Assembly (NCBI GenBank): GCA_016929295.1
Contig: JAFGJB010000214.1
Coordinates: 10,261 to 74,260 of the forward strand
Reading direction: 5' to 3'
Source of the DNA: Candidatus Zhuqueibacterota bacterium
GTDB taxonomy: Bacteria > Zhuqueibacterota > Zhuqueibacteria > Residuimicrobiales > Krinioviventaceae
Length of the DNA: 64,000 bases
How positions within the stretch are numbered: position 1 is the first letter of the stretch; every line of letters starts with the position of its first letter. Made by a program: the position numbers and the translations under genes. The notes under the pieces are model-generated. The model saw only the letters and a program-made list of their open reading frames with translations. It was not told the DNA's origin and made no database searches. Shown here piece by piece: positions 19,939 through 52,975 of the stretch.

Positions 19939-19950
19939 CCATTTTCCTTT

Positions 19951-23264: not shown

Positions 23265-23274
23265 ATCTGCCACC

Positions 23275-23303: not shown

Positions 23304-23403
23304 GCGACAATCTGACATTCATCGAGCAACAATTTTGATAAAAACCTTGCAAGTCAGGTTGAAAGAGGCTAATTTCTCTCGAAAATCTTCAAGGGTAGAG
23401 ACG

Positions 23404-28851: not shown

Positions 28852-28858
28852 AAATCAA

Positions 28859-32138: not shown

Positions 32139-32141
32139 GTG

Positions 32142-33329: not shown

Positions 33330-34321
33330 GACTTTCTCATATTTAAATGACCCTTTTCAATATACCAGTCCGCTGTTCGCTTGATCCCTTCACGCATGCT
33401 GACCTGCGGCGTATAACCTAATTCGTGTTTTGCTTTCGAGATGTCGAATGCACGGTCGTGGGTGAATATATGCACGCGACGCGGGTAGATCGGCGGCTGC
33501 AGCCGGAAAGGGATGCAGACCTTTTCGCACAAATGCGCGACTATTTCCAATGGCCGGACCGGAGGCATCCAATACAGAGGACGCACGCCGAGTTCTTCAG
33601 CCACCATGGTTGCGAATCCCATGAGTGTCGTATAGGATTCGCCGGCGATAATATAGGTTTGTCCGATGGCGATCTCTTTTTCGGCGGCCAGGCGAAAGCC
33701 TTCGACTGTATCGGTGACAAAAGTGAGATGATAGAGAACCTGTCCGTTGCCAAACATGATGAATCGCCGCTTTTGAATCGACTTGTATAATTTGAGCATT
33801 CGCGCATCGCCAGGGCCATAAATGCCAACCGGACGGACGATCGTCACCGGCAGTCCGTGCTTTTCGTGATAGCGGCGCGCCAGCTTTTCACCCTCGTACT
33901 TTGTCGTCTGATAGATATCCTCAGGCTCAATGGGGGCGTTTTCATCAGCCGGTGGATTTTTTATATGACCATGCACGCCACACGTGCTGCAATGAAGAAA
34001 TCGATTCACACCTGCTGCAAGCGCCGCTTCGAGCAGGTTTTCCGTACCGGTCACATTGACATCCCAATAAGCACTGTCAGGTACATTTGCAGCTCGATAG
34101 AGAGCCGCAATATGAAAAACGACATCGACGCCGTCGACGGCGCGAAGAACCTGGCTTTTATTTTGCAATTCACCATAGGCGAATTCGACCGGCAAATCCC
34201 GTAAAGCAGCCAGATCGCGCTGCGGACGCACGAAAACTCGCACAGCATAATCGTGCGCCAGCAAGTTTTTCACCATATAACCTCCGGTAAAGCCGGATGC
34301 GCCTGTCACCAGTGCTTTCAT
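33326..34321 (-). CDS. NAD-dependent epimerase/dehydratase family protein
   Basis: MKALVTGASGFTGGYM Rossmann motif and an SDR-extended pattern. Confidence 0.8.
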   Translation of the reverse strand: MKALVTGASGFTGGYMVKNLLAHDYAVRVFVRPQRDLAALRDLPVEFAYGELQNKSQVLRAVDGVDVVFHIAALYRAANVPDSAYWDVNVTGTENLLEAALAAGVNRFLHCSTCGVHGHIKNPPADENAPIEPEDIYQTTKYEGEKLARRYHEKHGLPVTIVRPVGIYGPGDARMLKLYKSIQKRRFIMFGNGQVLYHLTFVTDTVEGFRLAAEKEIAIGQTYIIAGESYTTLMGFATMVAEELGVRPLYWMPPVRPLEIVAHLCEKVCIPFRLQPPIYPRRVHIFTHDRAFDISKAKHELGYTPQVSMREGIKRTADWYIEKGHLNMRKS

Positions 34322-34342
34322 CGCCTCAAGACTCCCTCGACG

Positions 34343-35167
34343 TCACTTTTTCGCCACAATACAAATAGCATGGCCGTAATTCCTTCTGATAAATGCCGGC
34401 AGCAGATTATAGAGCGGTACAAAGATATGATTGAACAAGCCGGCTAAAAATCCTTTCCGCAGTGATGTCGTCGCCCGGATATAATCCAAAAAGACCTCAA
34501 CCTCGCGAAAGTCGATGAACAACTCGCGCACATTTTTCTTATCATACAAGCGCGTGATCGGTGCATCTTGATGGGCAAACTCAAAATTCACTTTGCCAAA
34601 TCTGGTGAGAAGAATTTTCCATGAATATTTATAATAGAGTGTAATCAGCGCTTCCCCGCCCGGCTTTAAAACTCGCCAAACTTCTGTCACCGCCTTCTGC
34701 GTGCTCTCCGTCTGATGCAGTACGCCAAGCGAAGCCACAACATCGAACGTGTTGTCATCAAACGGCAGCTCTTCCGCGCTGCCGTGCTTCAGTTCGGCCT
34801 GCAGATTATTGTGCTGTAAATTCTTTTGCGCCAGCTCCAGAGCAGCGGCTGACAAATCCAGGCCGGTCGCCTTCATGCCGCAGCGAGCCCAATGGACCAA
34901 TTCCCAGCCCGCGCCGCAGCCGACTTCGAGAATTTTTCCGCCCGGGAATTTTGCTGCCTGGTTTTCGATGAGACGATATCGATGTTCATAATTTTTCCTG
35001 ATGAATGAACCCACCGTATCAAAGAACTCTCCGGAGCCAATCCGACGCGGATCCCCTGTCCAGAATTGCGTTGAATTGACATTATCGGTCCAATATCGCT
35101 GAACCTCATCAATCGTTTTTATGTCGCTCCCCTTCCACAAATATGTTCCTATTGTATCCGCCATCAC
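34343..35167 (-). CDS. Class I SAM-dependent methyltransferase
   Basis: SAM-binding motif ILEVGCGAGWELVHWARCG...DLS and a LKPGG motif. Confidence 0.75.
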   Translation of the reverse strand: MMADTIGTYLWKGSDIKTIDEVQRYWTDNVNSTQFWTGDPRRIGSGEFFDTVGSFIRKNYEHRYRLIENQAAKFPGGKILEVGCGAGWELVHWARCGMKATGLDLSAAALELAQKNLQHNNLQAELKHGSAEELPFDDNTFDVVASLGVLHQTESTQKAVTEVWRVLKPGGEALITLYYKYSWKILLTRFGKVNFEFAHQDAPITRLYDKKNVRELFIDFREVEVFLDYIRATTSLRKGFLAGLFNHIFVPLYNLLPAFIRRNYGHAICIVAKK

Positions 35168-35190
35168 ATCATCCGTCTTTTACATTGTGA

Positions 35191-36858
35191 TCATTTATAG
35201 TTGTATGTTTTTTCATAATTAATTATCTCTTGGCGCTGCCGTGTCGGCGTCCAGTTCAGTTCGTGCGCCATCAGCGCCACTGCAGCAGATATCTGTGCAT
35301 CGGAAGCTCTGCCCGCAGTGCCCAGCTCCGTTCTCCGCAGCAAGATATCGGACAGGGTTTGTGCCATTTCGTAACGTATGCCGAAAATGACCTCGGCCTT
35401 GAGAACATACGAATCGCTGCACAGAAGGGCCCACTTTTCGCCATCCTCTGCGCAGTTGAGAACGTCTTGATACCGCGTACCAAAAGTATGTATGAGATGT
35501 TTTTTACTTTCAGGCGAAAAATCGCCGTTCAGATTCGCCATGCTTTTGCTGCGGAATTCCTCGAAAGAGCGCATATCGCCGCCCCATATCGGGACATCGC
35601 GACTGCGGGAGCATTTATCCCCATAGCCAAGCTTGTTGACAGCCTTGGTGACAGCTGCTTCTGCAACGCCGCGAGCGGTGGTAAATTTGACCGTCAGGAT
35701 GGAGAGCAAGCCGTCGAGATCATCTTTTTCTTTATGGTCGATGATTTCAAAATGCTTGGTGATGGTCACATCGCCGGTCTCTTTGTTGACGCCGGACATC
35801 GGTAACAAGCCGGCATAAACATGGACAATCTCATCGCGCCTGATTTTCTCATTTGGCAGCGCACCATTCACTTCATCAAGAAACTCACATATTTCCGTCT
35901 CGGTCACGGCATATTCATCGGCATCCCCGCGATAGGGTTTGTGCGCTGTGCCGGCCAACGTTTTTCCCCGCCACGGCACAAAGAACAGCAAGCGCGATCC
36001 CTTGTTAATGAGCGCATCGCTATCCTTGAACTCTTTTTTTGAGGGGGCAGCGAATGCGATGTCTGTCAATTGTCGGTTGATGACGAGGTTCATGGCGGTC
36101 GAGAACTCGATTTTTTTCTCCGCATGACAATGATCAGCGAGGAGGTCATTGATCCACGGACCAAGCGCCGTGATGGTCATTTTTGCGCTGATTTCAAACG
36201 AGTTTTCACCCACAAGATCGCGCGCCAGCACGCCGCAGACGCGGCGATTCTTCACGAGTAATTTTTCGGCTTTGACATAATTGGCCGCGGTCGCACCTTT
36301 CTCAACAGCCCCATGAAGAAAAGAAAAAAGCAGTCGTTCTGCATTTATCATATGGGCATCATACCACAGCGCGCCGCCGTTGAGATCATCTCTATTCACT
36401 CCCGGGATCAACTGCTGCACCTGTCTTTTCGACACTATCCTGCCGTGCGGCAGTTTGTGAGCGGCATCCAGACCTCGGTTACGATCCGCACTGAACAGAT
36501 CATTCATCAACAGGCCAATCCGCATCACTTCAGGTCCCTTCACCGCATGGCCGAAAGTCGGCATGATGCACGGCAGTGGGAATACAAGATGTGGGGCGAT
36601 CCTGAGCAGACTGCGCCGTTCGGCGATTGATTCGCGCATGCGAATCAGGTCCGCGTGCTGCAAATATCGCAGGCCGCCATGAATGATCTTGAGGCTGTTC
36701 GCTGATGTCCCGGAGGCGAAATCATTTTTTTCAATGAGGGCCACACGCAGGCCGCGCAGCACAGCATCCCAGGCCACTGTGGCGCCATATATACCGCCGC
36801 CGATGACGAGTAGATCGAACTCTTCGGTCGCGAGGCGCTGTAATTCTCGTTTCATCAT
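35191..36858 (-). CDS. FAD-dependent oxidoreductase, glycerol-3-phosphate dehydrogenase (GlpA/GlpD)-like
   Basis: DLLVIGGGIYGATVAWDAVLRGLRVALIEKNDFASGTSANSLKIIHGGLRYL is the GlpD-family dinucleotide-binding signature. Confidence 0.7.
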   Translation of the reverse strand: MMKRELQRLATEEFDLLVIGGGIYGATVAWDAVLRGLRVALIEKNDFASGTSANSLKIIHGGLRYLQHADLIRMRESIAERRSLLRIAPHLVFPLPCIMPTFGHAVKGPEVMRIGLLMNDLFSADRNRGLDAAHKLPHGRIVSKRQVQQLIPGVNRDDLNGGALWYDAHMINAERLLFSFLHGAVEKGATAANYVKAEKLLVKNRRVCGVLARDLVGENSFEISAKMTITALGPWINDLLADHCHAEKKIEFSTAMNLVINRQLTDIAFAAPSKKEFKDSDALINKGSRLLFFVPWRGKTLAGTAHKPYRGDADEYAVTETEICEFLDEVNGALPNEKIRRDEIVHVYAGLLPMSGVNKETGDVTITKHFEIIDHKEKDDLDGLLSILTVKFTTARGVAEAAVTKAVNKLGYGDKCSRSRDVPIWGGDMRSFEEFRSKSMANLNGDFSPESKKHLIHTFGTRYQDVLNCAEDGEKWALLCSDSYVLKAEVIFGIRYEMAQTLSDILLRRTELGTAGRASDAQISAAVALMAHELNWTPTRQRQEIINYEKTYNYK

Positions 36859-36865
36859 TATAGTG

Positions 36866-38767
36866 TCAGCCCTGAAAATTTCGTGTGTCTTTCATGTACA
36901 AGTCGTACCATAGATGAAATACCATCAATGCCCACAATCTGTGACTGTGATTCTCTTTGCTCTTCAAATGTTCATTGACGAGGCGATTGACAAACTGGGG
37001 ATCAAAATAGCCCTTTTCCACGACATTCTTTTCCGATAACGACTCGAGCATCATCGGCTTGAGCTCATTTTTAAGCCAGTTTTTGATCGGAATGCTAAAG
37101 CCTTCCTTTCCTCGTTCAATGACCGTGAGTGGCAGCACAGCGCGCAGGCTGTTTTTGAGAATGTGTTTCGTTCGCTTGCCGCGGAGCCGCAGATGACCGG
37201 GTATAGTCGCGGCGAACTCGACAAACCGATGATCCAGAAACGGCACGCGCGCTTCCAGCGAGTTCGCCATGCTCATGCGATCGACCTTGACGAGAATATC
37301 ATCAACCAGATAGCTTTTGATATCGACATATTCTTGTTGGTCAAGAGGATCCGGCGACGTCACCTGGGCAAAATACTCCTCGATGAAGCCAAAAGAATTA
37401 TAACCGTGCAAAGATCGGGCAAACTCTGGCGAATAGAGCAGCTCTTTCTCGGTCTGCTGTAGAAATATCATCCAGCGAACGTGTTGCAGATTGCCGGGCA
37501 ATCGTGTTCCCTCGATGAAGCGTTTGGATCTGTTGATGAATCCTTTCTTCTTTTTTGTCGGCGGCAATGCGTCCACTATAGGCTCAATGGCCGCTTTTCG
37601 CAGAAACCGTGGCAGCATATTGTATTTTTTTGCCAGCCGTTGCGCCAGGTAGGTGTCATAGCCGGCTAACAATTCATCCCCGCCATCACCGGAGAGCACG
37701 ACCTTCACATTCTTTCGCGCCATCTCGGAGACGAGATATGTCGGGAATACAGAAAAATCCCCGAATGGTTCATCAAGCATCCACAAGATTTTTTCTGTCA
37801 ACCTGGTGACGTCGGGTTTAATAATTTCCTCAAAATGTTCTGTACGGAACTTGTCGGCGACGGCACGAGCATATGGAAGTTCATTATAGGTCGCTTCATC
37901 AAAACCGATGGAAAAGCTTTTCACAGGATCAGCGCTGTTGCGGCTCATCATCGCGACGATCGAGCTCGAATCGAGGCCGCCGCTGAGGAAAGCGCCGAGA
38001 GGGACGTCACTCATCAATCGAATCTTCACCGCGTCTTCTAAAAGCTCCTCCAGGCGCGCATTCAAAGCCGCTTCGCCGGCCATTGTGCAGTGGTATTCCA
38101 CATTCCAGTATTGCTGCGTTTGAATTCGGCCGTCCTGGTACAACATCCAATGCCCGGGGGGCAGTTTGAAGATATTGGCAAAGATGCTGTAAGGGCTTGG
38201 AATATATTCAAAAGTGAGAAAAATATCCAGCGCTTTCGGTTCAATCTCTCTGGGGACGGAATCGAGTTGAACGATGGACTTGAGTTCCGATGCAAACACA
38301 AATTGCAGCTCATCGCAGTAGTAATAGAGTGGCTTGATGCCGAGGCGATCGCGAGCGAGGAAGAGTCGCTTATTTCGTCCGTCCCAGATCGCAAAGGCAA
38401 ACATGCCATTCAGTCTATTCACACAGTCCGTGCCCCACTCTTCATAGGCGTGCAGGATCGCTTCTGTATCGGTTTTGGTGCTGAAGAGGTAGCCTCTGGC
38501 GGTCAACTCTTTGCGGATATCGATATGGTTATAGATCTCGCCATTGAAAACAATGGCCATGGAGCGGTCTTGATTAAAAATGGGCTGATGGCCGGTGGAC
38601 AGATCAATGATGCTCAATCGCCGCATGCCGATGCCGATATTTTCATGGACGAATTGACCTTCGTCATCCGGACCACGATGTTCCATGGCATGGCACATTT
38701 TCTGAACGTCGGCGCATTCAACAGGATGGTCTTTATTCCGATGGATAACGCCACAAATACCGCACAT
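36866..38767 (-). CDS. asnB: Asparagine synthetase (glutamine-hydrolysing)-like amidotransferase
   Basis: N-terminal MCGICGV (Cys2 nucleophile) and the SGGLDSS PP-loop. I take the start at MCGICG. It overlaps the upstream GT4 stop by 1 nt (TAATG). Confidence 0.85.
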   Translation of the reverse strand: MCGICGVIHRNKDHPVECADVQKMCHAMEHRGPDDEGQFVHENIGIGMRRLSIIDLSTGHQPIFNQDRSMAIVFNGEIYNHIDIRKELTARGYLFSTKTDTEAILHAYEEWGTDCVNRLNGMFAFAIWDGRNKRLFLARDRLGIKPLYYYCDELQFVFASELKSIVQLDSVPREIEPKALDIFLTFEYIPSPYSIFANIFKLPPGHWMLYQDGRIQTQQYWNVEYHCTMAGEAALNARLEELLEDAVKIRLMSDVPLGAFLSGGLDSSSIVAMMSRNSADPVKSFSIGFDEATYNELPYARAVADKFRTEHFEEIIKPDVTRLTEKILWMLDEPFGDFSVFPTYLVSEMARKNVKVVLSGDGGDELLAGYDTYLAQRLAKKYNMLPRFLRKAAIEPIVDALPPTKKKKGFINRSKRFIEGTRLPGNLQHVRWMIFLQQTEKELLYSPEFARSLHGYNSFGFIEEYFAQVTSPDPLDQQEYVDIKSYLVDDILVKVDRMSMANSLEARVPFLDHRFVEFAATIPGHLRLRGKRTKHILKNSLRAVLPLTVIERGKEGFSIPIKNWLKNELKPMMLESLSEKNVVEKGYFDPQFVNRLVNEHLKSKENHSHRLWALMVFHLWYDLYMKDTRNFQG

Positions 38768-39990
38768 TAACTTTTTGTCCTCTTCACTCGTTCCACAATC
38801 CATTTGGTCTTTTGCAGGTAATCATCATAGCTGTAATGTTTCTCTGCCAGTTGTTGCGCGGCAGCGACAAGGCGACGTTGCTCCTCACTGTCATCCAAAA
38901 TGGCAAGCAAAGCATCTGCAAACGCCTCTGGATTCGGATCGGCTAGAACGGAAACGGAGTCACTGAGTATTTGAGTGTGCGTAATATGACGTGTAGCCAC
39001 AATGGGCTTCCCACTTCTCAAATAGGAATATATTTTAAGAGGTGAATTTGTCCCTTGCAAACGCGGTGAAACGAGCACATCGCTGAGCGAAACAAAGCTG
39101 GGGATCATCTCGGGGGGAACGAAGCCGGTAAAAGTGAACCTGGATGCAACGCCCAATCGTTGTGCCTGGCTGCGAAAATTCGACACCTGCTGTTCATTGC
39201 CGCCTACCATCAAAAAGTGAACATCGCCCGGCCGCTTTTTATTCACTCTCGCAGCACTCTCTATGAGCATATCAATCCCCTGATACGGCTCGAGCGTGCC
39301 GTAATAGAGTACAATTTTAGCGCCATTCAAGCTATACTTTTTTCGCAAACTTTCTCGCCGTGAATCGGTCGCCGGGAAAACGATGCTGTTGTCCGCGACA
39401 TTTTCGATCAGCATGCTTTTTTGAGCGGAAAAATGTCTTTCAACATAGCTCTGCAATTCGGGGCAAATCGTTATGACGCCGGCCGACTTTACGATTGCAT
39501 TTCTTTCAAGGGACTCGAACAGGTTTCGCAACAACCTGGATTTGGAAAATTTAAAGTTGCCGAGCTGTTGCGGCAGGCTCGAGTGCATATCATAGAGATG
39601 AGGCAGACCGTATTTCGCTGCGAGTTTAATACCAAAGAACGCCGCTTCCTCGTGGGTGTGGAGATAGTCATAGGTGTTTTTTTTTAGCAATTCGACCGCT
39701 TTACGATAGAGGGCGATATCGAGAAATATTTTCGCCAAAGACGGGCCGATCTTGACTTTATTGATGAATGGCAGCTTTGCTGCGCGATGAATGGAGAGAT
39801 TGTCGATTGGCACATCCTGCCCCACATGATAGGTCACCAGGTCAACCTGATGGCCGAGCAGTGACAACGCTTTGATGCGATGCAATACGCTGAACGGCGT
39901 ACCACGAGGTTGGAACCATGGCTGTGGTGCGATCATGAGAATACGCAGCTTTTCCATTTCATCACTATAAGGGATGCTTATATTCATCGA
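38767..39990 (-). CDS. Family 4 glycosyltransferase (GT4)
   Basis: The N-terminal LRILMIAPQPWFQPRGTPFSV and the C-terminal EGFG-type region have the GT-B pattern. I take the start at MNISIP. Confidence 0.75.
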   Translation of the reverse strand, partial: SMNISIPYSDEMEKLRILMIAPQPWFQPRGTPFSVLHRIKALSLLGHQVDLVTYHVGQDVPIDNLSIHRAAKLPFINKVKIGPSLAKIFLDIALYRKAVELLKKNTYDYLHTHEEAAFFGIKLAAKYGLPHLYDMHSSLPQQLGNFKFSKSRLLRNLFESLERNAIVKSAGVITICPELQSYVERHFSAQKSMLIENVADNSIVFPATDSRRESLRKKYSLNGAKIVLYYGTLEPYQGIDMLIESAARVNKKRPGDVHFLMVGGNEQQVSNFRSQAQRLGVASRFTFTGFVPPEMIPSFVSLSDVLVSPRLQGTNSPLKIYSYLRSGKPIVATRHITHTQILSDSVSVLADPNPEAFADALLAILDDSEEQRRLVAAAQQLAEKHYSYDDYLQKTKWIVERVKRTKS

Positions 39991-40012
39991 AAAATACCTA
40001 ATACAAAAGGAC

Positions 40013-41470
40013 TTATTGAGCACCGTAGCCGGTGATGACGACCAAAAAGGTTCTAAACATAAGTTTGAGATCGAGTGCGAGAGACCAATGATCGATGTAT
40101 TCCAGGTCCATCCGCATCCACTCCTCAAAACCTATCTTGTTCCGGCCACTGACTTGCCAGATACAGGTGATCCCGGGTTTGAGAGAGAGTCTTCTGCGTT
40201 GCCAAATTTCATAGTGCTCGACTTCACTTCGCAAGGGCGGACGCGGGCCGACGATGCTCATATCTCCTTTCAACACATTAAAGAATTGCGGAATTTCATC
40301 GATGCTGGTTTTGCGGATGATATATCCAATCGGTGTGATGCGCGGGTCATGTTTTATCTTGAATACAGGACCATCCATCTCGTTATAATGAAGGAGCGAG
40401 TCTTTCAATGTTTCGGCATCCGATACCATGGAGCGAAATTTATACAACTGGAATTTACGTCCATTGAGTCCAATACGTTCCTGCTTGAAAAAGATGGGAC
40501 CTTTGGACGTTATTCGAATCAACAGAGCTGCAAGCAGGATGAGCGGCGAGAAAAATAAGATGGCCGTCAACGAAATAGCAATGTCGAGCACTCTTTTGAT
40601 GAAGAGTTGCCATTCTTTGGCATAAAAAGTCTGGAATTCCAGCAGCGGGAAGCCGTTAAAGTCCGTCTGTCGCGCTTTGGCAATATGCAGATTATAGAGA
40701 TCCAGGGAAATGGATGTTGATACACCGACTTTTTCGCACTCCAGTATGGCGCCTTCGATGCGATCCAGCCAGATTCGTGGCACCACGAAAATAACCCGGT
40801 CGATGACCAACCGATTCACAATGAAGCCGATGTCCTGAATTCGGCCCAGCACACGAAAGCCTTCAATCTCTTTGCCAAAATATCGCGGATCATCATCGAT
40901 CAAACCGACGACATGCAATCCCCAATTCGAATGACTTTTGACATTGCGAATGAACTCGCGGGCGCGATTGCCGGTCCCGACGATGAGCAAATTCTCCTGA
41001 TTATATCCTCTGGCATGCATTCGCTCCAGGATGAAGAGAATGATCGCTTTTTCCATAATGATCAGCGTATAGGCCGTACCTGAGTAGACGAGGAAAAACA
41101 ACCGACTTGCCATATCAAATTTGAAAAAGAAGATAAAACTGCCGCACACAAAACTGGCCCATACGGAGGTGATGAAAAGAATCCACGCCAAATTTTTAAA
41201 TGAACGTGTCCGGTAATCCTGGTAGATCTTGTTGAGATTGTAGAGTCCCCACCAGATGAGCGGAAAACCGATGAACATGACCCAGTATTTTGACGTAAAA
41301 TACAACAGGCCGGACACATTTATGCTGGTCGCATAAGCCTTTACATTCCAGAAAGTAATATGACGGATGAACTCGTCAATATAGTAGGCCAGCGGAAACG
41401 CCGAATAGAGAATGAGCAGGTCAACAAACTTGAATACATTCTGTATGAATTTTTCTTTATCTGCCAGCAT
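40013..41470 (-). CDS. Undecaprenyl-phosphate sugar phosphotransferase (WbaP/CpsE-like priming glycosyltransferase)
   Basis: KRVLDIAISLTAILFFSPLILLAALLIRITSKGPIFFKQERIGLNGRKFQLYKFRSM is the conserved bacterial sugar transferase C-terminal domain. The N-terminal region is a TM domain. Confidence 0.85.
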   Translation of the reverse strand: MLADKEKFIQNVFKFVDLLILYSAFPLAYYIDEFIRHITFWNVKAYATSINVSGLLYFTSKYWVMFIGFPLIWWGLYNLNKIYQDYRTRSFKNLAWILFITSVWASFVCGSFIFFFKFDMASRLFFLVYSGTAYTLIIMEKAIILFILERMHARGYNQENLLIVGTGNRAREFIRNVKSHSNWGLHVVGLIDDDPRYFGKEIEGFRVLGRIQDIGFIVNRLVIDRVIFVVPRIWLDRIEGAILECEKVGVSTSISLDLYNLHIAKARQTDFNGFPLLEFQTFYAKEWQLFIKRVLDIAISLTAILFFSPLILLAALLIRITSKGPIFFKQERIGLNGRKFQLYKFRSMVSDAETLKDSLLHYNEMDGPVFKIKHDPRITPIGYIIRKTSIDEIPQFFNVLKGDMSIVGPRPPLRSEVEHYEIWQRRRLSLKPGITCIWQVSGRNKIGFEEWMRMDLEYIDHWSLALDLKLMFRTFLVVITGYGAQ

Positions 41471-41473
41471 CTA

Positions 41474-42457
41474 TCAATCATGTCCTGGAATAGTCGGTCC
41501 TCGCTGTCCCTCATGTTGAAGGAACCATTCTACAAAATATCCTATACCGTCCTCGATATTAATTTGCGGATCATATTTTAGCTCCCTCCTGGCCTTTTCC
41601 ACATCAGCATAGGTGATCGGAACGTCACCCGGTTGATCCGATCTGAATTCGATGAGAGCTTCAATGCCGAGCGCATGCTGAATGAGTCCGACGAGCGCCA
41701 TGAGCTCAACGGTTTTTGATTCGCCGAGATTGTATATGTTATAACCATCGCAATGGTGAATCGCTGCAGTGAGGCCCTGAATGATATCCGAAATATAGGT
41801 ATAATCACGACGGCTTTTTCCGGAGCCAAAGACCGATATGGGCGTCCGGTTGTAGATCAGACGAGTAAATTTGTGAATTGCCATATCCGGTCGCTGCCGC
41901 GGGCCATAGACGGTGAAGAAGCGCAGACAATTGACCGAAATATCATACAAGTGGTGGTAGGTATAGCAGATGAGCTCTCCCGCCTTTTTTGTCGCAGCGT
42001 AGGGTGATATCGGCTGATCCACCGGATCCGATTCTGCAAATGGCACTTTTTCATTGGCGCCATACACAGACGAAGAAGAGGCAAAGACAAATTTTTTGAT
42101 ACGATGGATTCTGCACTGCTCCAGCAAATTCATCGTGCCCTGCACATTCACTCTCTCATAGAGCAAGGGCTGTTCGATCGATGGCCGAACACCGGCGCGC
42201 GCTGCGAGATGGACGATTGCATCAAAATGGCGCTGATTGAAAACGGCTGCGACGTCGGATTCATGCAAAATATCCACTTTAGCAACTGCGTAATCAGGCG
42301 ACGCCAGCGCCTTTTGAATATTCTGTTGTTTTATGTCCGGATGATAATAGTCATTGAAATTATCAAGACAAACAACAGTGTGTCCTTCTTGCAGCAGCTT
42401 TTCAACCAGGTGCGAGCCGATGAATCCAGCTCCTCCAGTGACGAGAATATTCATCAA
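41474..42457 (-). CDS. NAD-dependent epimerase/dehydratase (UDP-sugar 4-epimerase-like)
   Basis: MMNILVTGGAGFIGSHL Rossmann motif. Confidence 0.8.
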   Translation of the reverse strand: MMNILVTGGAGFIGSHLVEKLLQEGHTVVCLDNFNDYYHPDIKQQNIQKALASPDYAVAKVDILHESDVAAVFNQRHFDAIVHLAARAGVRPSIEQPLLYERVNVQGTMNLLEQCRIHRIKKFVFASSSSVYGANEKVPFAESDPVDQPISPYAATKKAGELICYTYHHLYDISVNCLRFFTVYGPRQRPDMAIHKFTRLIYNRTPISVFGSGKSRRDYTYISDIIQGLTAAIHHCDGYNIYNLGESKTVELMALVGLIQHALGIEALIEFRSDQPGDVPITYADVEKARRELKYDPQINIEDGIGYFVEWFLQHEGQRGPTIPGHD

Positions 42458-42472: not shown

Positions 42473-44815
42473 TTAATAGTGATAATAGCTGTACGCACTT
42501 TTCATATTTGCTTCTTGCGTGCCGTTCATGACGATGCCGACAAGATTTGCCGGGACGGAATGAAAGATGTTCAAACGTTCTTTGGCATTGTTGCGATTGG
42601 TCTTACCCGCGCGCACGACGACCGCGACAGCGTCCACCAGTGTGCTGATGACAACAGAGTCGGTCGCCGCATCCAGCGGCGGTGCGTCAAAAATAATAAA
42701 GTCGTATTTTCTTTTTACCTCGGCAACAAATCGCCGCATCTGCATGGAGCCCAATAATTCAGAGGGATTGGGAATCAAAGAACCGCAGCTCAGTACAGAG
42801 AGATTTGGGACATGCGTCGGCTGGATGAGTCCGACGAGGGTCGCCTTGTTGCTCAGATAGCTGGTCAATCCCGGATCCTTCGAGGTGCTGAAGGTGTTGT
42901 GCTGAACGCCGCGACGGAGGTCAGCGTCAACCAGCAACGTGTTCGTGCGTTGTTGCGCCATGATGATGGCGAGGTTGCTGGCGGTGAACGATTTCCCTTC
43001 TTCCGGGCTGATGCTGGTGATGAGCAGCGTTCTGATTTGCTCTGAACCTCGCGCAAATAACAGCTGTGTTCGCAGCGCGCGGTACGCTTCTCCAACTGGA
43101 GTCGGCGAGTAGTCGTGCGTCACTAGTTGGCGGTCAATTTGCGACGCTTTCTGGTCGTCGCGAAAATCAGGAATATCCTTGAAAGAGACAACAGGTATTG
43201 TCCCGAGCACCGGCAGGTTCAGATAACGTTCCACATCTTTGAGTGTATGCAGCGACCGATCAGCAACATCAATGCCGATGGAGAGGACTAGTCCGAGCAT
43301 GAATCCGAGTCCTGCGCCAATCATGACCTGCATATTTTTGCTCGGATTGACCGGCTTGGTGGGTCGAACAGCACGGTCGAGGATGCGGATGCCCGTATCC
43401 GAACCGGCGCTGGAGACCTGGAGTTTTTTCATTTCAACGTAAAAAGCCGTATACAATTCCTCGTCGACTTGTTTTTTTCTCTCCAGTTCCATCAATCGTC
43501 TCTCATCGCTTGGCAAGGCATACAATCTTGTTTCCAGTTCAGATTTTTCCTTGCGATGTTTCGATTCTTGCTCGGCAAGGATATTTCGATAGTTGGAAGC
43601 AAATTGCACGATTTTATCCTGCGTTTCTTTTATTCTCCTGGCATAGTTGATGACATCCTTATGTTCGGCGGAATACTGGGCATACAATCGATCATATTCC
43701 CTTTCCAAATTCCCAAGGTTTTGGCGATAAATCACCAATTCGGGCTCGTCTGCCATAGGGGTTAAATTGGCTATCTGTTGTATGACGACGCGGCGATATT
43801 CCATCTCATAGCCGTCTTCGGGATTATCAAGCTTTGTGAGCAGATTTGTCAGGGTCCGCCGCTGCGACGGCAGAGTTCGCAGGGCGGTCTCGTTGGCTGA
43901 GAGTTGATTCATCAGGTTCTTTTTTTCAGCATCGAGCGAGAGCGGATATTGCGAATAGAATCGGTGCAGATATTCTTCACTATTCTTCACATTTTCTTCA
44001 GCGGCCGCAAGGTTGCGGCTCAGCATGTCTCGATAAGTGTCAGAATCCATCAGCTTCAGCCTTTTGATTTCGGCAAGATAGGTCTCGGCAATGCGATTGA
44101 GCAATTTAGGTATCAAATCAGGATCTACATCTTCAAGCTCCAAAACCATGAAATTGCCGGCCCTGTTGAAACTTTTTGCAATCTTATAATCAAGGAATTT
44201 AAAACCTTTGATAAACGGCCTGATGCGGAAATTGAACTCTCCAGGTTTATAGCTGAAATTTGGATTGAGACGGAATGAAATCCCGTTGATGGAGCGAGGC
44301 GTATCGACGGCATCCCAAACATTGGCACTATCGACAGCGACGTGCACATCCCCTTTCTTTTGAAATAAATAATAGGTTCCCAGTTTATCAATTACTATTT
44401 TATATTGGGCTTCAACAGGATTTGTCGTTGTCTGATATTCCAGGAAAACCTCGTCGAGTTCCTTATAGACCGAGTCCGAAACGGCATATGCCAAGCCCAG
44501 GATTGCCGCCATACGCTCAGTGAAAGATTGGCTACGAATTTCTGCCTGGGTTTCGCCATCAAAAATATTATACTCGTCGCTGCCGACTTTTTTCGACTGA
44601 ATGACTACCCGGCATTTATAGCGTGGCACCTGGTTTTTGGCAACAAAGTAAAAAGGGATAGCAACAATGCAACTCAGACAGAGAATGAGCCACTTGCGCT
44701 TCCATATACCTTTAATGAACTTGACAAAATCTATTTGGTTTGTTTGCCCTGCATCAAATGACTCTTCAAATGCTTGAAAATCTTCCATCGCCATAGTTTT
44801 ACCTTCGCTTCTCAT
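42473..44815 (-). CDS. Polysaccharide co-polymerase / BY-kinase (Wzc/GumC-like): Wzz chain-length determinant domain plus a C-terminal tyrosine kinase with a Tyr cluster
   Basis: Two TM segments flank a periplasmic coiled-coil region. Walker A is ITSISPEEGKSFTASNLA. The C-terminal tyrosine cluster is SAYSYYHY. Confidence 0.85.
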   Translation of the reverse strand: MRSEGKTMAMEDFQAFEESFDAGQTNQIDFVKFIKGIWKRKWLILCLSCIVAIPFYFVAKNQVPRYKCRVVIQSKKVGSDEYNIFDGETQAEIRSQSFTERMAAILGLAYAVSDSVYKELDEVFLEYQTTTNPVEAQYKIVIDKLGTYYLFQKKGDVHVAVDSANVWDAVDTPRSINGISFRLNPNFSYKPGEFNFRIRPFIKGFKFLDYKIAKSFNRAGNFMVLELEDVDPDLIPKLLNRIAETYLAEIKRLKLMDSDTYRDMLSRNLAAAEENVKNSEEYLHRFYSQYPLSLDAEKKNLMNQLSANETALRTLPSQRRTLTNLLTKLDNPEDGYEMEYRRVVIQQIANLTPMADEPELVIYRQNLGNLEREYDRLYAQYSAEHKDVINYARRIKETQDKIVQFASNYRNILAEQESKHRKEKSELETRLYALPSDERRLMELERKKQVDEELYTAFYVEMKKLQVSSAGSDTGIRILDRAVRPTKPVNPSKNMQVMIGAGLGFMLGLVLSIGIDVADRSLHTLKDVERYLNLPVLGTIPVVSFKDIPDFRDDQKASQIDRQLVTHDYSPTPVGEAYRALRTQLLFARGSEQIRTLLITSISPEEGKSFTASNLAIIMAQQRTNTLLVDADLRRGVQHNTFSTSKDPGLTSYLSNKATLVGLIQPTHVPNLSVLSCGSLIPNPSELLGSMQMRRFVAEVKRKYDFIIFDAPPLDAATDSVVISTLVDAVAVVVRAGKTNRNNAKERLNIFHSVPANLVGIVMNGTQEANMKSAYSYYHY

Positions 44816-45461
44816 CCGTCAACGCATAATATAGAAAAAAGAGAGATGCAAAAAGATTGATATATCTCATAACTGCATCAAAGCTGATTCGATTGATTCG
44901 CGGGACGACGATCTCATCGCCCGACTCAAGTCCCAGCTCGCCAATGGATGCACCTTCGTTCAGAGAATTCCAAAACTCTGCGTAAATGATTTCACCCCGC
45001 CGCACAACATATATATTCTCCGCCGCCAGGTTGCTCGACATACCTCCTGCTTCCGCAACAAGATCCCAAAAAGAGGTGCGCGGACTGAAGCGATACATGC
45101 CCGGCTTGCCAAACTCTCCCCTGAGGATAAGCCGTATGAGGGGAACGACCATTATTGTCAGGTTTTTTCCATATGTTCGCAGCTTTTCTTCAAACAGCTT
45201 GGTCACCTCCTCGACGGACAGATTCGCCACGTAGACTCTGCCAAAGGATCCCAGATGCACGTAACCTTCTCCGTCGATCACAAATTCAGTGTCATGAAAG
45301 CTTGCCAGAATTCTGTTACGCTCGGGTTCCATGTCGTTATCATAGATTAATATTCTCAAACCATCGGCCTTTTTAAATTTAAAATCATCCGCAGCAAAGA
45401 GATCGAGCCCGGTGAAAAGTAATGCGATTATGGAATAGATAATATATTTTATCTGCAACAT
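44799..45461 (-). CDS. Polysaccharide export protein (Wza-like; Poly_export plus SLBB)
   Basis: Signal peptide. RILIYDNDMEP and GDEIVVP motifs typical of Poly_export/SLBB. It overlaps the wzc start by 17 nt. Confidence 0.7.
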   Translation of the reverse strand: MLQIKYIIYSIIALLFTGLDLFAADDFKFKKADGLRILIYDNDMEPERNRILASFHDTEFVIDGEGYVHLGSFGRVYVANLSVEEVTKLFEEKLRTYGKNLTIMVVPLIRLILRGEFGKPGMYRFSPRTSFWDLVAEAGGMSSNLAAENIYVVRRGEIIYAEFWNSLNEGASIGELGLESGDEIVVPRINRISFDAVMRYINLFASLFFLYYALTDEKRR

Positions 45462-45480
45462 GTTTGATCATCTCCTTCAT

Positions 45481-46233
45481 TTATCGCGAGCGGAAATAGC
45501 GGAACCTTTTTGTTTTTGTATTCAGAGATAAACTTTTCAATATCTTGTTTAATTTAAAAAGGCCAATCTTGGTATAGCCAAAACGTGGTGAATAAAGCAT
45601 CCTTTTCAGCCCCCAAGCACCAAGAATCGGGTTTTCCAAAACGATTTTTTTTATCTTTTCATTCATCGGCAGCAGCGTTTCATCAATTTCTCTACTGTGA
45701 TTGAAGCGGCCTGGCTTTGAGCTGGGCGACATCGTCTCAACGGGCACATGATTCAGCGTTCGGCTTTTTTCGCTGATGAATGAGCTATCCGCGATCTCCT
45801 CATCACTCACGGATGCAAGAGCGTGCGAATGTGAGGTTGCCGGGACCGTGTTATTGAGTTCACGATAAAAATCAAAATCCTCTATCGCCTCCTCAATCGA
45901 GTCATAGTTGGAGAGGATGCGATGAAATTCGAGCATTTCGAAAACCTCATAAACCTCCGACGACATCTGGGTGATTTTCAAGTCACCCCCTTTCTCCTGT
46001 AATCGGCGTATTTCGCCGACAAAAACGCCCCATCCCGCGCTGCTGACATATTGAACGGCGCCCATATCAATGATAAATTGACAGACTCCCTGTTCAATCG
46101 TTAGTCCTAAAACTTTTTGCAGCTCGGGTGACGTGTTTGTATCGACATAGCCATGCGTTTTAAGCAGGGCGATATCCTTCAGCGCGCCAACACGATACTC
46201 ATCAATCTGAATGCCTTCCATAAAACTCTTCAT
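45481..46233 (-). CDS. STAS-domain protein (anti-sigma-factor-antagonist fold) with a ~130-aa C-terminal extension that ends in a basic tail
   Basis: The N-terminal ~115 aa fit the SpoIIAA/STAS pattern (LKTHGYVDTNTSPELQKVL...QFIIDMGAVQYVSSAGWGVFVGEIRRLQEKGGDLKITQMSSEVYEVFEMLEF). The extension ends KSLSLNTKTKRFRYFRSR. Confidence 0.65.
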   Translation of the reverse strand: MKSFMEGIQIDEYRVGALKDIALLKTHGYVDTNTSPELQKVLGLTIEQGVCQFIIDMGAVQYVSSAGWGVFVGEIRRLQEKGGDLKITQMSSEVYEVFEMLEFHRILSNYDSIEEAIEDFDFYRELNNTVPATSHSHALASVSDEEIADSSFISEKSRTLNHVPVETMSPSSKPGRFNHSREIDETLLPMNEKIKKIVLENPILGAWGLKRMLYSPRFGYTKIGLFKLNKILKSLSLNTKTKRFRYFRSR

Positions 46234-46309
46234 CTCTTGTTCATTCGATAGTCGTGCGATCCGACAAAAACAGAAAAATTAAAGCCTGTTGACAGAGCAC
46301 ACAAGATCA

Positions 46310-46325
46310 AGCAAAGTTGGTGCCA
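46310..46325 (-). promoter_or_regulatory. Sigma-54 (RpoN) promoter candidate, TGGCAC-N5-TTGCT
   Basis: The minus strand reads TGGCACCAACTTTGCT, with GG and GC at the canonical -24/-12 spacing. It lies ~75 bp upstream of the STAS gene start. Confidence 0.5.
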
Positions 46326-46534
46326 ATGGAAGATGTCATGCGGCGCATGCCTGAGAAATAAAACAGCACGATCCCGAATGACAGTAATTCTATATTTTTA
46401 TTGGTCTAATGAAAGAGAGGACGAGACAAATGACTATCAATTTGATGCGAGATGAAGCTGAAGGTTTAAAAAAAACACTGTTTGTCAATACACGATACAA
46501 AGATGTCCCACACTAATACAGCGCCGAAATGCAG

Positions 46535-52903: not shown

Positions 52904-52975
52904 TGGGGCGTCGGCAAGCGGCAAGCCACTGGGTTTTGGTTCCAGTATTCGGAGGTTCGAATCCTCCCGCCCCAG
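52904..52975 (+). tRNA. tRNA-Gln (anticodon UUG), CCA not encoded
   Basis: TGGGGCG/CGCCCCA acceptor stem, D-arm TCGGCAAGCGGCAAGCC, anticodon stem-loop CTGGG-TTTTGGT-TCCAG, and T-arm GGAGGTTCGAATCCTCC. Nearly collinear with E. coli tRNA-Gln. Confidence 0.8.

What the first reader, a model, noticed from the sequence alone, without database searches (positions are those of the whole stretch)
45481..46325. Near-consensus sigma-54 promoter driving a STAS-domain protein and the EPS export genes
On the minus strand, TGGCACCAACTTTGCT matches the -24/-12 consensus (TGGCAC-N5-TTGC) with correct spacing. It lies ~75 bp upstream of a 250-aa protein whose N-terminal half is a STAS fold (anti-sigma-factor-antagonist type). 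That protein has an extra ~130-aa C-terminal region ending in a strongly basic tail.

Wza and Wzc follow 20 bp downstream. This gives two regulatory layers: an enhancer-dependent sigma-54 promoter, and a possible partner-switching STAS component, at the head of a polysaccharide export operon. The architecture for this extended STAS protein is undescribed.

A PspF-like sigma-54 activator is encoded at 17.8-19.0 kb in this window.
Basis: partly seen in the sequence, partly recalled or inferred. Interest (0 to 1): 0.6.

Follow-up and report, generated by a model that had tools for sequence, protein, structure and literature searches.

The report
Conserved sigma-54 promoter heading polysaccharide operon
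A real, enhancer-dependent sigma-54 promoter, conserved across an uncultured bacterial phylum, heads a 12-gene polysaccharide synthesis and export operon whose first gene encodes an unusual regulator: a phosphorylatable STAS switch domain fused to a small, very basic DNA-binding-type domain.

Summary
TGGCACCAACTTTGC (46311-46325, minus strand) is the only exact -24/-12 match in the window. One window alone is weak evidence: 15 of 100 shuffles also give a match.

Comparison is decisive. In 80 KSB1/Calditrichota genomes with the same gene order, TGGCAY-N4-TTTGY lies upstream of the STAS gene in about 70, with unconserved flanks. Where it is absent, it usually lies between the STAS gene and wza.

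Two TGT-N11-ACA dyads (46483-46520) occur in 59 of 80 loci, always upstream of the promoter and nowhere else in about 0.9 Mb.

The STAS call is confirmed. It is SpoIIAA/RsbV class, and its phosphorylatable serine is invariant in the 32 aligned homologues.

The C-terminal extension is a conserved four-helix domain of transposase/paired HTH type. Its net charge is +14, and every member checked also has a STAS domain. Most members sit beside Wza/Wzc genes.

The activator at 17.8-19.0 kb is a conserved sigma-54 activator without a sensor domain.

The design resembles the Vibrio syp locus (SypA), and the protein resembles CapS. It is a new variant of known kinds. What the STAS-HTH protein does remains inference.

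The parts
46483..46520 (-). Candidate upstream activator sequence. It is two dyads, TGTATTAGTGTGGGACA (46520-46504) and TGTATCGTGTATTGACA (46499-46483), each TGT-N11-ACA. Their centres are 21 bp apart, about 213 and 192 bp upstream of the predicted start site. The element begins 15 nt after the glgA stop codon.
   Evidence: It is unique in the window. The exact tandem pattern with a 1-5 nt spacer occurs in 59 of 80 related loci, always 170-363 nt upstream of the STAS ATG, with 0 hits elsewhere in about 0.9 Mb. Seven more loci match with one mismatch. Distance to the promoter is constrained. It is one of only two conserved blocks in the intergenic alignment of close relatives.
46310..46325 (-). 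Sigma-54 promoter TGGCACCAACTTTGCT, with -24 GG at 46324-46323 and -12 GC at 46312-46311. The predicted transcription start is near 46299.
   Evidence: It is an exact consensus match. It is conserved in about 70 of 79 orthologous intergenic regions with unconserved flanks. Half of all near-consensus hits in 1.8 M scanned positions fall at this one place.
45481..46221 (-). STAS-linker-HTH protein of 246 aa. An alternative upstream ATG at 46233 would give 250 aa. The STAS domain is residues 1-120 (45862-46221). The candidate phospho-serine S61 has its codon at 46039-46041. The disordered linker is residues 121-180. The C-terminal HTH-type domain with basic tail is residues 181-246 (45484-45681).
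   Evidence: Sequence and family calls. Structure models. HTH affinity and family distribution. Domain charges.
44799..45461 (-). Short Wza-like outer-membrane polysaccharide export protein (Poly_export plus SLBB, 220 aa).
   Evidence: Domains. It is syntenic in all 80 loci.
42473..44815 (-). Wzc-like polysaccharide co-polymerase and tyrosine autokinase (Wzz, GNVR, AAA_31; TIGR01007).
   Evidence: Domains. Synteny.
30357..42457 (-). The remaining nine genes of the operon: epimerase, priming glycosylphosphotransferase (TIGR03025), GT4 glycosyltransferase, AsnB-type amidotransferase, FAD oxidoreductase, methyltransferase, a second epimerase, pyruvyl transferase, and a flippase-like domain fused to an acetyltransferase. 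No intergenic gap exceeds 23 nt.
   Evidence: Domains. Gaps. Sigma-70-like and terminator-like sites are at chance level. Synteny through GT4.
17801..18997 (-). Sensor-less sigma-54 enhancer-binding protein with an AAA+ domain, a GSFTGA loop and a Fis-type HTH. It is the candidate activator, but the link to this promoter is not shown.
   Evidence: Domains and sequence. It belongs to a conserved orthologue group with a conserved gene context.

Best explanation
The glgA/STAS intergenic region carries an enhancer-dependent sigma-54 promoter. RNA polymerase with sigma-54 would bind the -24/-12 element at 46311-46325. A sigma-54 activator would bind the two 17-bp dyads about 190-215 bp upstream (46483-46520), contact the closed complex by DNA looping, and use ATP to open it. 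Transcription would start near 46299.

The transcript would cover a tightly packed operon of 12 genes and about 16 kb (46221 down to 30357). It encodes a STAS-HTH protein, a short Wza-type exporter, a Wzc-type co-polymerase/tyrosine kinase, the priming glycosyltransferase and sugar-modifying enzymes.

Shown here: the sequence elements, their conservation and positional constraints, the operon architecture, the domain identities, and a sigma-54 activator in the same genome.

Inferred: which activator binds the dyads. The conserved sensor-less one at 17801-18997 is the obvious candidate.

Also inferred, at about 40% confidence, is the role of the first gene product. I propose it is a local, phosphorylation-controlled regulator of this polysaccharide system. 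Its acidic SpoIIAA-class STAS domain (net charge -12, invariant Ser61) would be the switch. Its very basic C-terminal HTH-type domain (net +14) would be the output that binds nucleic acid. This follows the logic of CapS, a STAS-wHTH repressor released from DNA when its STAS serine is phosphorylated. The kinase and phosphatase would be encoded elsewhere in the genome.
For: Promoter:
- It is an exact consensus match and the only one in the window.
- In 79 orthologous upstream regions, 55 have at least 9 of 10 consensus bases and 16 are exact.
- Of 112 such hits among 1.8 M scanned positions, about half lie at this one place.
- A motif-anchored stack of 71 sequences shows near-maximal information only on TGGCAy-N4-TTTGy and about zero in the flanks.
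- Positions not used for selection fit the extended consensus: purine at position 8 in 65 of 70, and A/T after GC in 56 of 70.
- Where the upstream intergenic region is 7-52 nt or lacks the motif, a TGGCAC or TGGTAT-N5-TTGC motif usually lies between the STAS gene and wza.

Enhancer:
- Tandem TGT-N11-ACA dyads occur in 59 of 80 loci, always upstream of the STAS gene, with 0 elsewhere.
- The proximal dyad centre lies 118-143 nt, or 162-227 nt, upstream of the predicted start, while the promoter-to-ATG distance varies from 40 to 200 nt.

Operon:
- Gaps are at most 23 nt.
- The order GlgA-STAS-Wza-Wzc-epimerase-priming transferase-GT4 is kept in all 80 loci.
- No sigma-70-like site lies in the intergenic region.

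Activator:
- An intact bEBP is in the window. It is conserved at 57-84% identity, with the same architecture, across the group.

STAS-HTH protein:
- The STAS domain is SpoIIAA/RsbV class.
- Ser61 aligns with the SpoIIAA phosphorylation site, which is the residue mutated to Ala in 1TID, and with the equivalent RsbV serine. It is invariant in 32 members.
- The C-terminal domain folds confidently (pLDDT 93) into four helices.
- It gives weak hits to HTH_21 (E=1e-4) and, in a two-copy member, to HTH_Tnp_Tc3_2 (E=8e-7).
- Its best structural matches are Pax paired domains and other HTH DNA binders.
- Only 222 protein clusters in 1.84 billion carry this domain. It lies at the C-terminus in nearly all listed, and every non-repetitive long member checked also has a STAS domain.
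- The CapS precedent is PMC13373217.
Against: - No transcription start data exist, and rpoN was not seen because it is not in this window.
- About 18 loci have TTTGT instead of TTTGC at -12, which is a weaker match.
- Binding of the dyads by a bEBP is inferred from geometry only. The STAS-HTH protein itself could be the binder.
- All structural matches of the C-terminal domain have E>1, and its Pfam hits fall below the gathering thresholds, so the HTH assignment is a convergent but weak inference.
- No operator at a fixed distance from the promoter was found.
- No kinase or phosphatase gene was found in the window. None of the window genes that fill the flanks of the related loci is one.
- The known STAS regulators of polysaccharide synthesis, SypA and All4160, act after transcription rather than on DNA.
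Confidence: 0.75

Rival explanations
1. The promoter part stays the same, but the STAS-HTH protein acts after transcription. This is how SypA acts in Vibrio and how the STAS domain of the Anabaena priming transferase All4160 acts. Unphosphorylated STAS would switch on the Wza/Wzc machinery or the priming glycosyltransferase by protein contact. The basic C-terminal domain would then be a docking or membrane-binding module rather than a DNA binder.
For: Most family members sit directly next to Wza/Wzc genes: all 80 loci, plus L081-L085, L090 and the P0213 contig. This holds even in lineages with no sigma-54 motif. SypA and All4160 provide the precedent (PMC4517449; bioRxiv 10.64898/2026.04.08.717354). 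The extreme C-terminal R-x-R-x-x-R-S-R is invariant, which is unusual for a DNA-recognition tail.
Against: The C-terminal domain's sequence and fold affinities are all to DNA-binding HTH domains. A net charge of +14 over 63 residues fits nucleic-acid binding. Two divergent members are not next to Wza.
Confidence: 0.3
2. The tandem dyads at 46483-46520 are the operator of the STAS-HTH protein itself, giving CapS-like autoregulation, and not the binding sites of the sigma-54 activator, or not only those.
For: The dyads are always adjacent to the STAS-HTH gene. CapS binds palindromes beside its own gene (PMC13373217). The TGTTTC half-site also appears in the short upstream regions of 3 of 6 divergent loci that lack a sigma-54 motif. 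The expected rate is about 0.1-0.2 per region.
Against: A 7-N3-7 dyad geometry, tandem sites one and a half to two helical turns apart, and a position 120-220 bp upstream of a -24/-12 promoter together form the classic bEBP enhancer arrangement. The comparison with the NtrC, NifA and GlrR sites is from general knowledge. The dyad-to-promoter distance is more constrained than the dyad-to-gene distance. Six loci with the promoter between STAS and wza have the STAS-HTH gene but no dyads. The half-site enrichment in divergent loci is anecdotal.
Confidence: 0.2
3. The STAS-HTH protein is the trans-acting feedback regulator of the sensor-less activator. The parallel is PspA, which is the first gene of the PspF-dependent operon and inhibits PspF. 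Partner switching would then be wired into sigma-54 enhancer-dependent transcription.
For: The conserved activator has no regulatory domain, so it needs control in trans. The STAS-HTH gene is the first gene of the operon that this promoter drives. Both are conserved across the group.
Against: There is no direct evidence. Divergent family members occur without a sigma-54 promoter. In a complete chromosome the two genes are 3.3 Mb apart.
Confidence: 0.1
4. The STAS protein is a classical anti-anti-sigma factor that frees a sigma-70-family sigma factor from an RsbW-type anti-sigma kinase.
For: It has a SpoIIAA/RsbV-class fold and a conserved serine. Sources annotate homologues as anti-sigma factor antagonists.
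Against: No anti-sigma kinase or sigma gene is in the window, and none of the window genes that fill the flanks of the related loci is one. This model does not explain the conserved extra HTH domain or the Wza/Wzc linkage.
Confidence: 0.07
5. The motif is not a sigma-54 promoter. It would be a chance match, or a Bacteroidetes-type primary-sigma -7 element (TAnnTTTG), because TAACTTTG occurs inside many copies.
For: Fifteen of 100 shuffles of the window give an exact match. TAnnTTTG is present in 17 of 70 copies.
Against: TGGCA is the best conserved part, in 66 of 70 copies, and the -7 model does not explain it. TA is present in only 17 of 70, and a -33-like TTTG at the right distance in only 4 of 70. 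The flanks are unconserved, and an enhancer-like element accompanies the motif.
Confidence: 0.03

Closest known systems
Vibrio fischeri syp (symbiosis polysaccharide) locus: SypA, SypG, SypE
   Same: A sigma-54-dependent promoter with an upstream enhancer drives a polysaccharide locus. Its first gene encodes a STAS protein with a phosphorylatable serine, and Wza-like and Wzc-like export genes follow (PMC4517449 and the Ray et al. 2013 paper cited there).
   Different: SypA is a single STAS domain with no HTH domain. Its kinase/phosphatase SypE and the activator SypG, which has a receiver domain, are encoded inside the locus. Here no kinase or phosphatase is linked, and the candidate activator is unlinked and has no sensor domain. 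The lineage is also far removed (Gammaproteobacteria against KSB1/Calditrichota).
CapS (STAS plus winged-HTH transcriptional repressor) with the kinase CapK
   Same: Both have an N-terminal SpoIIAA-like STAS domain with a conserved serine and a C-terminal HTH-type domain. Both are encoded immediately upstream of the operon they accompany (PMC13373217).
   Different: The CapS DNA-binding domain is a MarR/ArsR-like winged helix joined directly to the STAS domain. Here it is a four-helix transposase/paired-type domain on a 30-95 residue disordered linker with a basic tail. No adjacent CapK-type kinase is present. The regulated genes are for polysaccharide export, not immunity. The promoter is sigma-54-dependent.
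STAS-Bac_transf fusion proteins of cyanobacteria (All4160, XssP)
   Same: A phosphorylatable STAS domain is dedicated to a polysaccharide pathway (bioRxiv 10.64898/2026.04.08.717354).
   Different: There the STAS domain is fused to the priming transferase itself. Here the priming transferase is a separate gene four genes downstream, and the STAS domain is fused to an HTH-type domain.
PspF/PspA and other sensor-less sigma-54 activators controlled in trans
   Same: The activator consists only of an AAA+ domain and an HTH domain.
   Different: The protein falls below every NCBIfam equivalog cut-off, including PspF at 308 bits against 443.55. There is no psp operon, and its loop motif is GSFTGA.
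XrtA/PEP-CTERM exopolysaccharide loci with the sigma-54 activator PrsR (PMC1569441)
   Same: The polysaccharide locus has an AsnB-type amidotransferase, a Wzc-like kinase and a priming transferase, and appears to be under sigma-54 control.
   Different: All PEP-CTERM-specific models score below their cut-offs. No exosortase was found in the window. The activator lacks the receiver domain.

Membership tests
Sigma-54 (-24/-12) promoter | GG and GC dinucleotides ten bases apart within TGGCAC-N5-TTGC(W) | tested here: met
   There is an exact match at 46311-46325, followed by T.
Sigma-54 (-24/-12) promoter | Intergenic, correctly oriented, and conserved at orthologous positions beyond the flanking sequence | tested here: met
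   Fifty-five of 79 loci have at least 9 of 10 consensus bases. The flanks carry about zero information. The motif is usually relocated to the STAS-wza spacer when absent upstream.
Sigma-54 (-24/-12) promoter | Upstream activator binding sites (an enhancer) | tested here: met
   Tandem TGT-N11-ACA dyads lie 118-227 bp upstream in 59 of 80 loci and nowhere else. The binding protein has not been identified.
Sigma-54 (-24/-12) promoter | rpoN and at least one bEBP in the genome | tested here: inconclusive
   A bEBP is present in the window.
Sigma-54 (-24/-12) promoter | Transcription start about 12 nt downstream of GC, dependent on sigma-54 | not testable with these tools
   This needs 5'-RACE or differential RNA-seq, or in vitro transcription.
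Anti-sigma-factor antagonist / partner-switching STAS (SpoIIAA, RsbV) | STAS fold of the SpoIIAA class | tested here: met
   Pfam E=1e-16. TIGR00377 scores above its cut-off. Foldseek TM is 0.83-0.93 to SpoIIAA and RsbV.
Anti-sigma-factor antagonist / partner-switching STAS (SpoIIAA, RsbV) | Conserved phosphorylatable serine in the D-S-(S/T)-G-L-G position | tested here: met
   Ser61 in V-S-S-A-G-W-G aligns with the serine that is mutated to Ala in 1TID and with the equivalent RsbV serine. It is invariant in 32 sequences.
Anti-sigma-factor antagonist / partner-switching STAS (SpoIIAA, RsbV) | Cognate RsbW/SpoIIAB-type kinase and PP2C phosphatase | tested here: inconclusive
   None was found in the 64-kb window. 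None of the window genes that fill about 6 kb on each side of the 80 loci is one. The rest of the genome could not be searched.
Anti-sigma-factor antagonist / partner-switching STAS (SpoIIAA, RsbV) | Single-domain protein of about 110 aa | tested here: not met
   The protein is 246 aa, with a conserved extra C-terminal domain.
SypA-type regulator of a syp-like locus | First gene of a sigma-54-dependent polysaccharide locus, followed by Wza/Wzc-type genes | tested here: met
SypA-type regulator of a syp-like locus | SypE-type kinase/phosphatase and SypG-type response-regulator activator inside the locus | tested here: not met
   No such genes lie between 30357 and 50159. The bEBP is 27 kb away and lacks a receiver domain.
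CapS-type STAS-wHTH repressor | N-terminal STAS with conserved serine plus a C-terminal DNA-binding domain | tested here: inconclusive
   The STAS domain and serine are met. The C-terminal domain is HTH-like only by sub-threshold Pfam hits and Foldseek matches with E>1. It has four helices and no wing, so it is not MarR/ArsR-like. No CapS sequence was available for direct comparison.
CapS-type STAS-wHTH repressor | Adjacent CapK (HTH-STAS-GHKL kinase) gene | tested here: not met
   The neighbours are glgA and wza in all 80 loci.
XrtA/PEP-CTERM exopolysaccharide system | System-specific NCBIfam models above cut-off, and an exosortase gene | tested here: not met
   TIGR03108 scores 683 bits against 817, TIGR03018 142 against 231, TIGR04063 108 against 442, and TIGR02915 343 against 503. 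No exosortase Pfam hit was found among the window ORFs scanned.

The most novel reading that the evidence does not exclude
The STAS-HTH protein could be a new kind of sigma-54 accessory regulator. It would be a phosphorylation-switched, DNA-tethered partner that sits at or beside the tandem dyads and gates the phylum-wide sensor-less activator. The feedback would resemble PspA acting on PspF. By Rosetta-stone logic from the domain fusion, it would also point to the long-unknown target class of SypA-type STAS regulators of polysaccharide loci.
Probability: 0.1. Interest if true: 0.75.

Novelty: new variant of a known kind. Interest (0 to 1): 0.45.

Why it matters
The work defines a complete cis-regulatory module for an almost entirely uncultured group, KSB1/Zhuqueibacterota and Calditrichota. 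The module comprises an enhancer, a -24/-12 promoter and an operon. It shows that sigma-54 control of the cell exterior extends to these lineages in a strongly conserved form.

It also defines a compact protein family, STAS-linker-HTH, found in 222 clusters among 1.84 billion proteins and mostly associated with Wza/Wzc export genes. How STAS proteins such as SypA control polysaccharide production is still unknown. A natural fusion of such a STAS domain to a nucleic-acid-binding-type domain gives a concrete hypothesis that can be tested by EMSA and with S61A/S61E variants. It also provides a second example, after CapS, of STAS domains used as switches on DNA-binding outputs.

Tried and rejected
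- **Sigma-70 promoters and terminators.** A scan of 45300-46700 found no sigma-70 consensus site in the intergenic region and no minus-strand terminator after glgA. Across the operon both kinds of site are at chance level.
- **Known RNA families.** Rfam at gathering thresholds found nothing near the locus, only a tRNA at 52904-52975.
- **Bacteroidetes-type -7/-33 promoter.** Rejected.
- **An operator at a fixed distance from the promoter.** No conserved position lies within 60-70 nt either side of the motif.
- **TGTTTC half-sites travelling with the STAS-HTH gene in loci without sigma-54 motifs.** Three of six upstream regions have one. This is suggestive but too few to count.
- **PEP-CTERM/XrtA membership.** All system-specific models score below their cut-offs.
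- **Sequence search of the C-terminal domain against PDB.** Nothing was found.
- **Foldseek of the C-terminal domain against PDB.** Only matches with E>1.
- **Partner kinase, phosphatase or rpoN in the window.** All ORFs of at least about 130 aa were scanned and none was found.
- **Physical linkage of the activator and the STAS locus.** They share a contig in several genomes but lie 3.3 Mb apart in a complete chromosome, so linkage gives no argument.
- **Literature on sigma-54 in KSB1 or Calditrichota.** Nothing specific was found.
Full report
**What is at the coordinates**

On the minus strand, TGGCACCAACTTTGC occupies 46325-46311. GG is at 46324-46323 and GC at 46312-46311. It is the only exact match to TGGCAC-N5-TTGC in the window. 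Shuffles expect 0.16 matches, and 15 of 100 shuffles contain at least one, so the single site is only suggestive by itself.

The motif lies in the 313-nt spacer between a glycogen synthase gene (46535-48016, TIGR02095) and an ORF at 45481-46233. Homologues of that ORF all start MEGI/MDGI. The likely start is therefore the second ATG, at 46221, giving a 246-aa protein. No sigma-70 consensus site and no minus-strand terminator lie in the spacer.

**Origin of the window**

A protein 100% identical to the window's activator sits on an 80.7-kb NCBI contig of "candidate division KSB1 bacterium". Homologues of the STAS protein come from KSB1, Calditrichota and related metagenome-assembled genomes.

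**The operon**

Twelve co-directional genes run from 46221 down to 30357. No gap between them exceeds 23 nt, and several genes overlap. In order they encode:
- the STAS protein;
- a 220-aa Wza-like exporter (Poly_export plus SLBB);
- a 780-aa Wzc-like co-polymerase/tyrosine kinase (Wzz, GNVR, AAA_31; TIGR01007);
- an epimerase;
- the priming glycosylphosphotransferase (TIGR03025);
- a GT4 glycosyltransferase;
- an AsnB-type amidotransferase;
- an FAD oxidoreductase;
- a methyltransferase;
- a second epimerase;
- a pyruvyl transferase;
- a flippase-like domain fused to an acetyltransferase.

Sigma-70-like and terminator-like sites inside the operon are at chance level.

**Comparative test of the promoter**

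I fetched 80 loci, one per species-level genome, that encode a relative of the STAS protein. A tblastn search with the window's proteins shows the same gene order in essentially all of them. The order is beta-barrel OMP, TPR protein, GlgA, STAS, Wza, Wzc, epimerase, priming transferase, GT4.

In the 300 nt upstream of the STAS gene, 55 of 79 loci carry a motif with at least 9 of the 10 consensus bases, and 16 are exact. Over all 1.8 million positions of the loci on both strands there are 112 such hits. About half of them lie at this one place.

I stacked 71 upstream regions on the motif. Information content is close to maximal on TGGCAy-N4-TTTGy and about zero in the 70 nt before and the 60 nt after. 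That is a clean phylogenetic footprint.

Two positions not used to pick the sites also fit the extended sigma-54 consensus. Position 8 is a purine in 65 of 70, and the base after GC is A or T in 56 of 70.

Where the glgA-STAS spacer is only 7-52 nt (L037, L044, L057, L079), or lacks the motif (L050, L052, L058, L062, L076), a TGGCAC-N5-TTGC or TGGTAT-N5-TTGC motif lies between the STAS gene and wza. Three loci have both. The constant feature is therefore sigma-54 control of the export and synthesis genes. The STAS gene is usually, but not always, inside the transcription unit.

A Bacteroidetes-type -7 box (TAnnTTTG) could be read into some copies. It is present in only 17 of 70. A -33-like TTTG at the right distance occurs in only 4 of 70. 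Neither explains the invariant TGGCA.

An alignment of the spacer from six close relatives shows only two conserved blocks. One is the promoter. The other is a 38-bp element just after the glgA stop codon.

This element is TGTATTAGTGTGGGACA-tctt-TGTATCGTGTATTGACA, at 46520-46483. It consists of two TGT-N11-ACA dyads whose centres are 21 bp apart.

The exact tandem pattern with a 1-5 nt spacer occurs in 59 of 80 loci. It is always 170-363 nt upstream of the STAS ATG and never anywhere else in about 0.9 Mb. Seven further loci match with one mismatch.

The consensus is TGTTTCAnnnTGgAACA followed by TGTTTCGnnnnnnCACA. One copy, in L030, is a perfect 7-N3-7 palindrome.

The proximal dyad centre lies 118-143 nt upstream of the predicted start in distant lineages, where the spacer is mostly 1 nt. 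It lies 162-227 nt upstream in the window's closer relatives, where the spacer is 3-4 nt. By contrast the promoter-to-ATG distance ranges from 40 to 200 nt. The element therefore tracks the promoter rather than the gene.

From general knowledge, this geometry is that of the NtrC, NifA and GlrR-type activator sites. In the window the dyad centres are at about -213 and -192 relative to a predicted start near 46299.

**The activator**

The ORF at 17801-18997 has a Sigma54_activat domain (E=2.6e-71), an AAA lid and a Fis-type HTH. It has a Walker A motif and a GSFTGA loop, and only 25 residues precede the AAA+ domain. It therefore has no sensor domain.

No NCBIfam equivalog reaches its cut-off. 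Orthologues of 57-84% identity with the same 390-400-aa architecture are found throughout the group. They sit in a conserved block: UvrB, PurD, epimerase, bEBP, LptE, TPR protein, GT2 glycosyltransferase, S8 peptidase.

This makes it a good candidate for the enhancer-binding protein. Nothing ties it specifically to this promoter, and in a complete chromosome the two loci are 3.3 Mb apart. rpoN is not among the window ORFs scanned.

**The STAS protein**

Residues 1-120 form a STAS domain of the anti-sigma-antagonist class. Pfam gives E=1e-16. TIGR00377 scores above its cut-off. The best PDB matches are SpoIIAA and RsbV, with TM 0.83-0.93.

Ser61, in the sequence V-S-S-A-G-W-G, aligns with the SpoIIAA serine that is replaced by alanine in 1TID and with the equivalent RsbV serine. 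It is invariant in 32 family members.

Residues 121-180 are a variable linker of 31-96 residues across the family, with low model confidence (pLDDT below 50). Residues 181-246 form a strongly conserved domain that ends in K-x-K-R-x-R-ar-ar-R-S-R, where "ar" is an aromatic residue.

Modelled alone, the C-terminal domain folds confidently into four helices (pLDDT 93, pTM 0.77). Its net charge is +14, against -12 for the STAS domain, and the family medians are +13 and -12.

No Pfam or NCBIfam model covers the C-terminal domain above threshold. Members give weak hits to HTH_21 (E=1e-4). A member with two copies hits HTH_Tnp_Tc3_2 (E=8e-7) and HTH_32.

All Foldseek matches have E>1. The top of the list is Pax paired domains, which are related to transposase HTH domains, followed by other DNA-binding HTH proteins. 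Sequence and fold therefore point the same way, weakly, to a transposase/paired-type HTH.

A profile of this domain finds only 222 clusters among 1.84 billion representative proteins. The domain lies at the C-terminus in nearly all of those listed. Every non-repetitive longer member I checked also has a STAS domain.

Gene context was examined for ten further members. In most, including lineages with no sigma-54 motif, the next genes are again Poly_export and Wzc-like, or a GNVR gene precedes. Two members stand apart from Wza, and one contig ends too early to tell. The family is therefore a companion of Wza/Wzc export systems, not of sigma-54 as such.

**How it most likely works**

Sigma-54 holoenzyme would occupy the -24/-12 element. 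An activator bound at the tandem dyads would remodel the closed complex by looping, and the 16-kb polysaccharide operon would be transcribed from about 46299. I rate this at about 0.8-0.9.

The first gene product most likely adds a second, phosphorylation-dependent layer specific to this polysaccharide system. Its closest functional model is CapS. CapS is a STAS-wHTH repressor whose STAS-mediated dimer and DNA binding are broken when a kinase phosphorylates the conserved serine (PMC13373217). On that model the basic HTH domain binds nucleic acid and the acidic STAS domain switches it. I rate this at about 0.4.

The main alternative is action after transcription on the export and synthesis machinery. 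SypA acts this way, and its mechanism is still unknown (PMC4517449). So does the STAS domain fused to the priming transferase All4160 (bioRxiv 10.64898/2026.04.08.717354).

Two further possibilities stay open. The dyads could be the operator of the STAS-HTH protein rather than activator sites. Or the protein could gate the sensor-less activator, as PspA gates PspF.

**Comparison with what is known, and novelty**

Sigma-54 control of exopolysaccharide and envelope genes is a recognised theme (PMC3162934, PMC1569441). The combination of a sigma-54 promoter with an enhancer, a STAS gene in first position, and Wza/Wzc genes after it matches the Vibrio syp locus.

The locus is not a member of that system. 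The syp locus encodes SypE and SypG within it, and SypA is a single domain. The protein is not a demonstrable CapS family member either. Its output domain is of a different type, a long linker separates the two domains, and no CapK kinase gene is adjacent.

It is best called a new variant of known kinds. It is a previously undescribed STAS-linker-HTH family coupled to Wza/Wzc, placed under a strongly conserved sigma-54 promoter and enhancer in KSB1/Calditrichota.

Noticed in passing
window 44799-45461 (-), 48164-48934 (-), 48939-50159 (-): The Wza-like protein is only 220 aa, with Poly_export and one SLBB domain. A 406-aa beta-barrel outer-membrane protein and a TPR protein lie just upstream of glgA in conserved synteny in most of the 80 loci. 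Together these may form a composite short-OPX plus beta-barrel export channel.
   Followed up: partly
window 27286-28851 (+) and 28835-30349 (+): Two large overlapping ORFs of 521 and 504 aa have no Pfam hit even at E=0.1. They converge on the end of the polysaccharide operon. They may be the missing polymerase or flippase, or something unknown.
   Followed up: partly
whole window: Only one site lies within one mismatch of TGGCAC-N5-TTGC, against 5.6 +/- 2.1 in dinucleotide-preserving shuffles. All 100 shuffles had at least one. This may reflect depletion of spurious sigma-54-like sites.
   Followed up: no
window 14760-23318 (-); L086, L087: The sensor-less sigma-54 activator sits in a gene block conserved across the group: UvrB, PurD, epimerase, bEBP, LptE, TPR protein, GT2 glycosyltransferase, S8 peptidase. 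Its start overlaps the epimerase gene and its end overlaps lptE. It thus appears co-transcribed with envelope genes.
   Followed up: partly
L037, L044, L050, L052, L057, L079 (related loci): In these lineages the sigma-54 motif lies between the STAS gene and wza rather than upstream of the STAS gene, and no TGTTTC dyads are present. The promoter has moved, and the enhancer must be different.
   Followed up: partly
L083/L084, L085, L088 (divergent family members): A TGTTTC/GAAACA half-site appears in the short upstream regions of three of six divergent loci that lack a sigma-54 motif. The expected rate is about 0.1-0.2 per region. This is a weak hint that the half-site might belong to the STAS-HTH protein.
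   Followed up: partly
P0147 / L085; P0165, P0214: One family member has a STAS domain followed by two copies of the C-terminal domain. Two other proteins consist of 5-10 tandem copies that hit many HTH families. Both observations link the domain to transposase-type HTH repeats.
   Followed up: partly
window 5561-7528 (-): A Hanks-type Ser/Thr protein kinase with a PEGA domain. It is unrelated to RsbW-type kinases but is the only protein kinase in the window.
   Followed up: no
window 52904-52975 (+): A tRNA gene, the only Rfam match at gathering threshold in the window.
   Followed up: no
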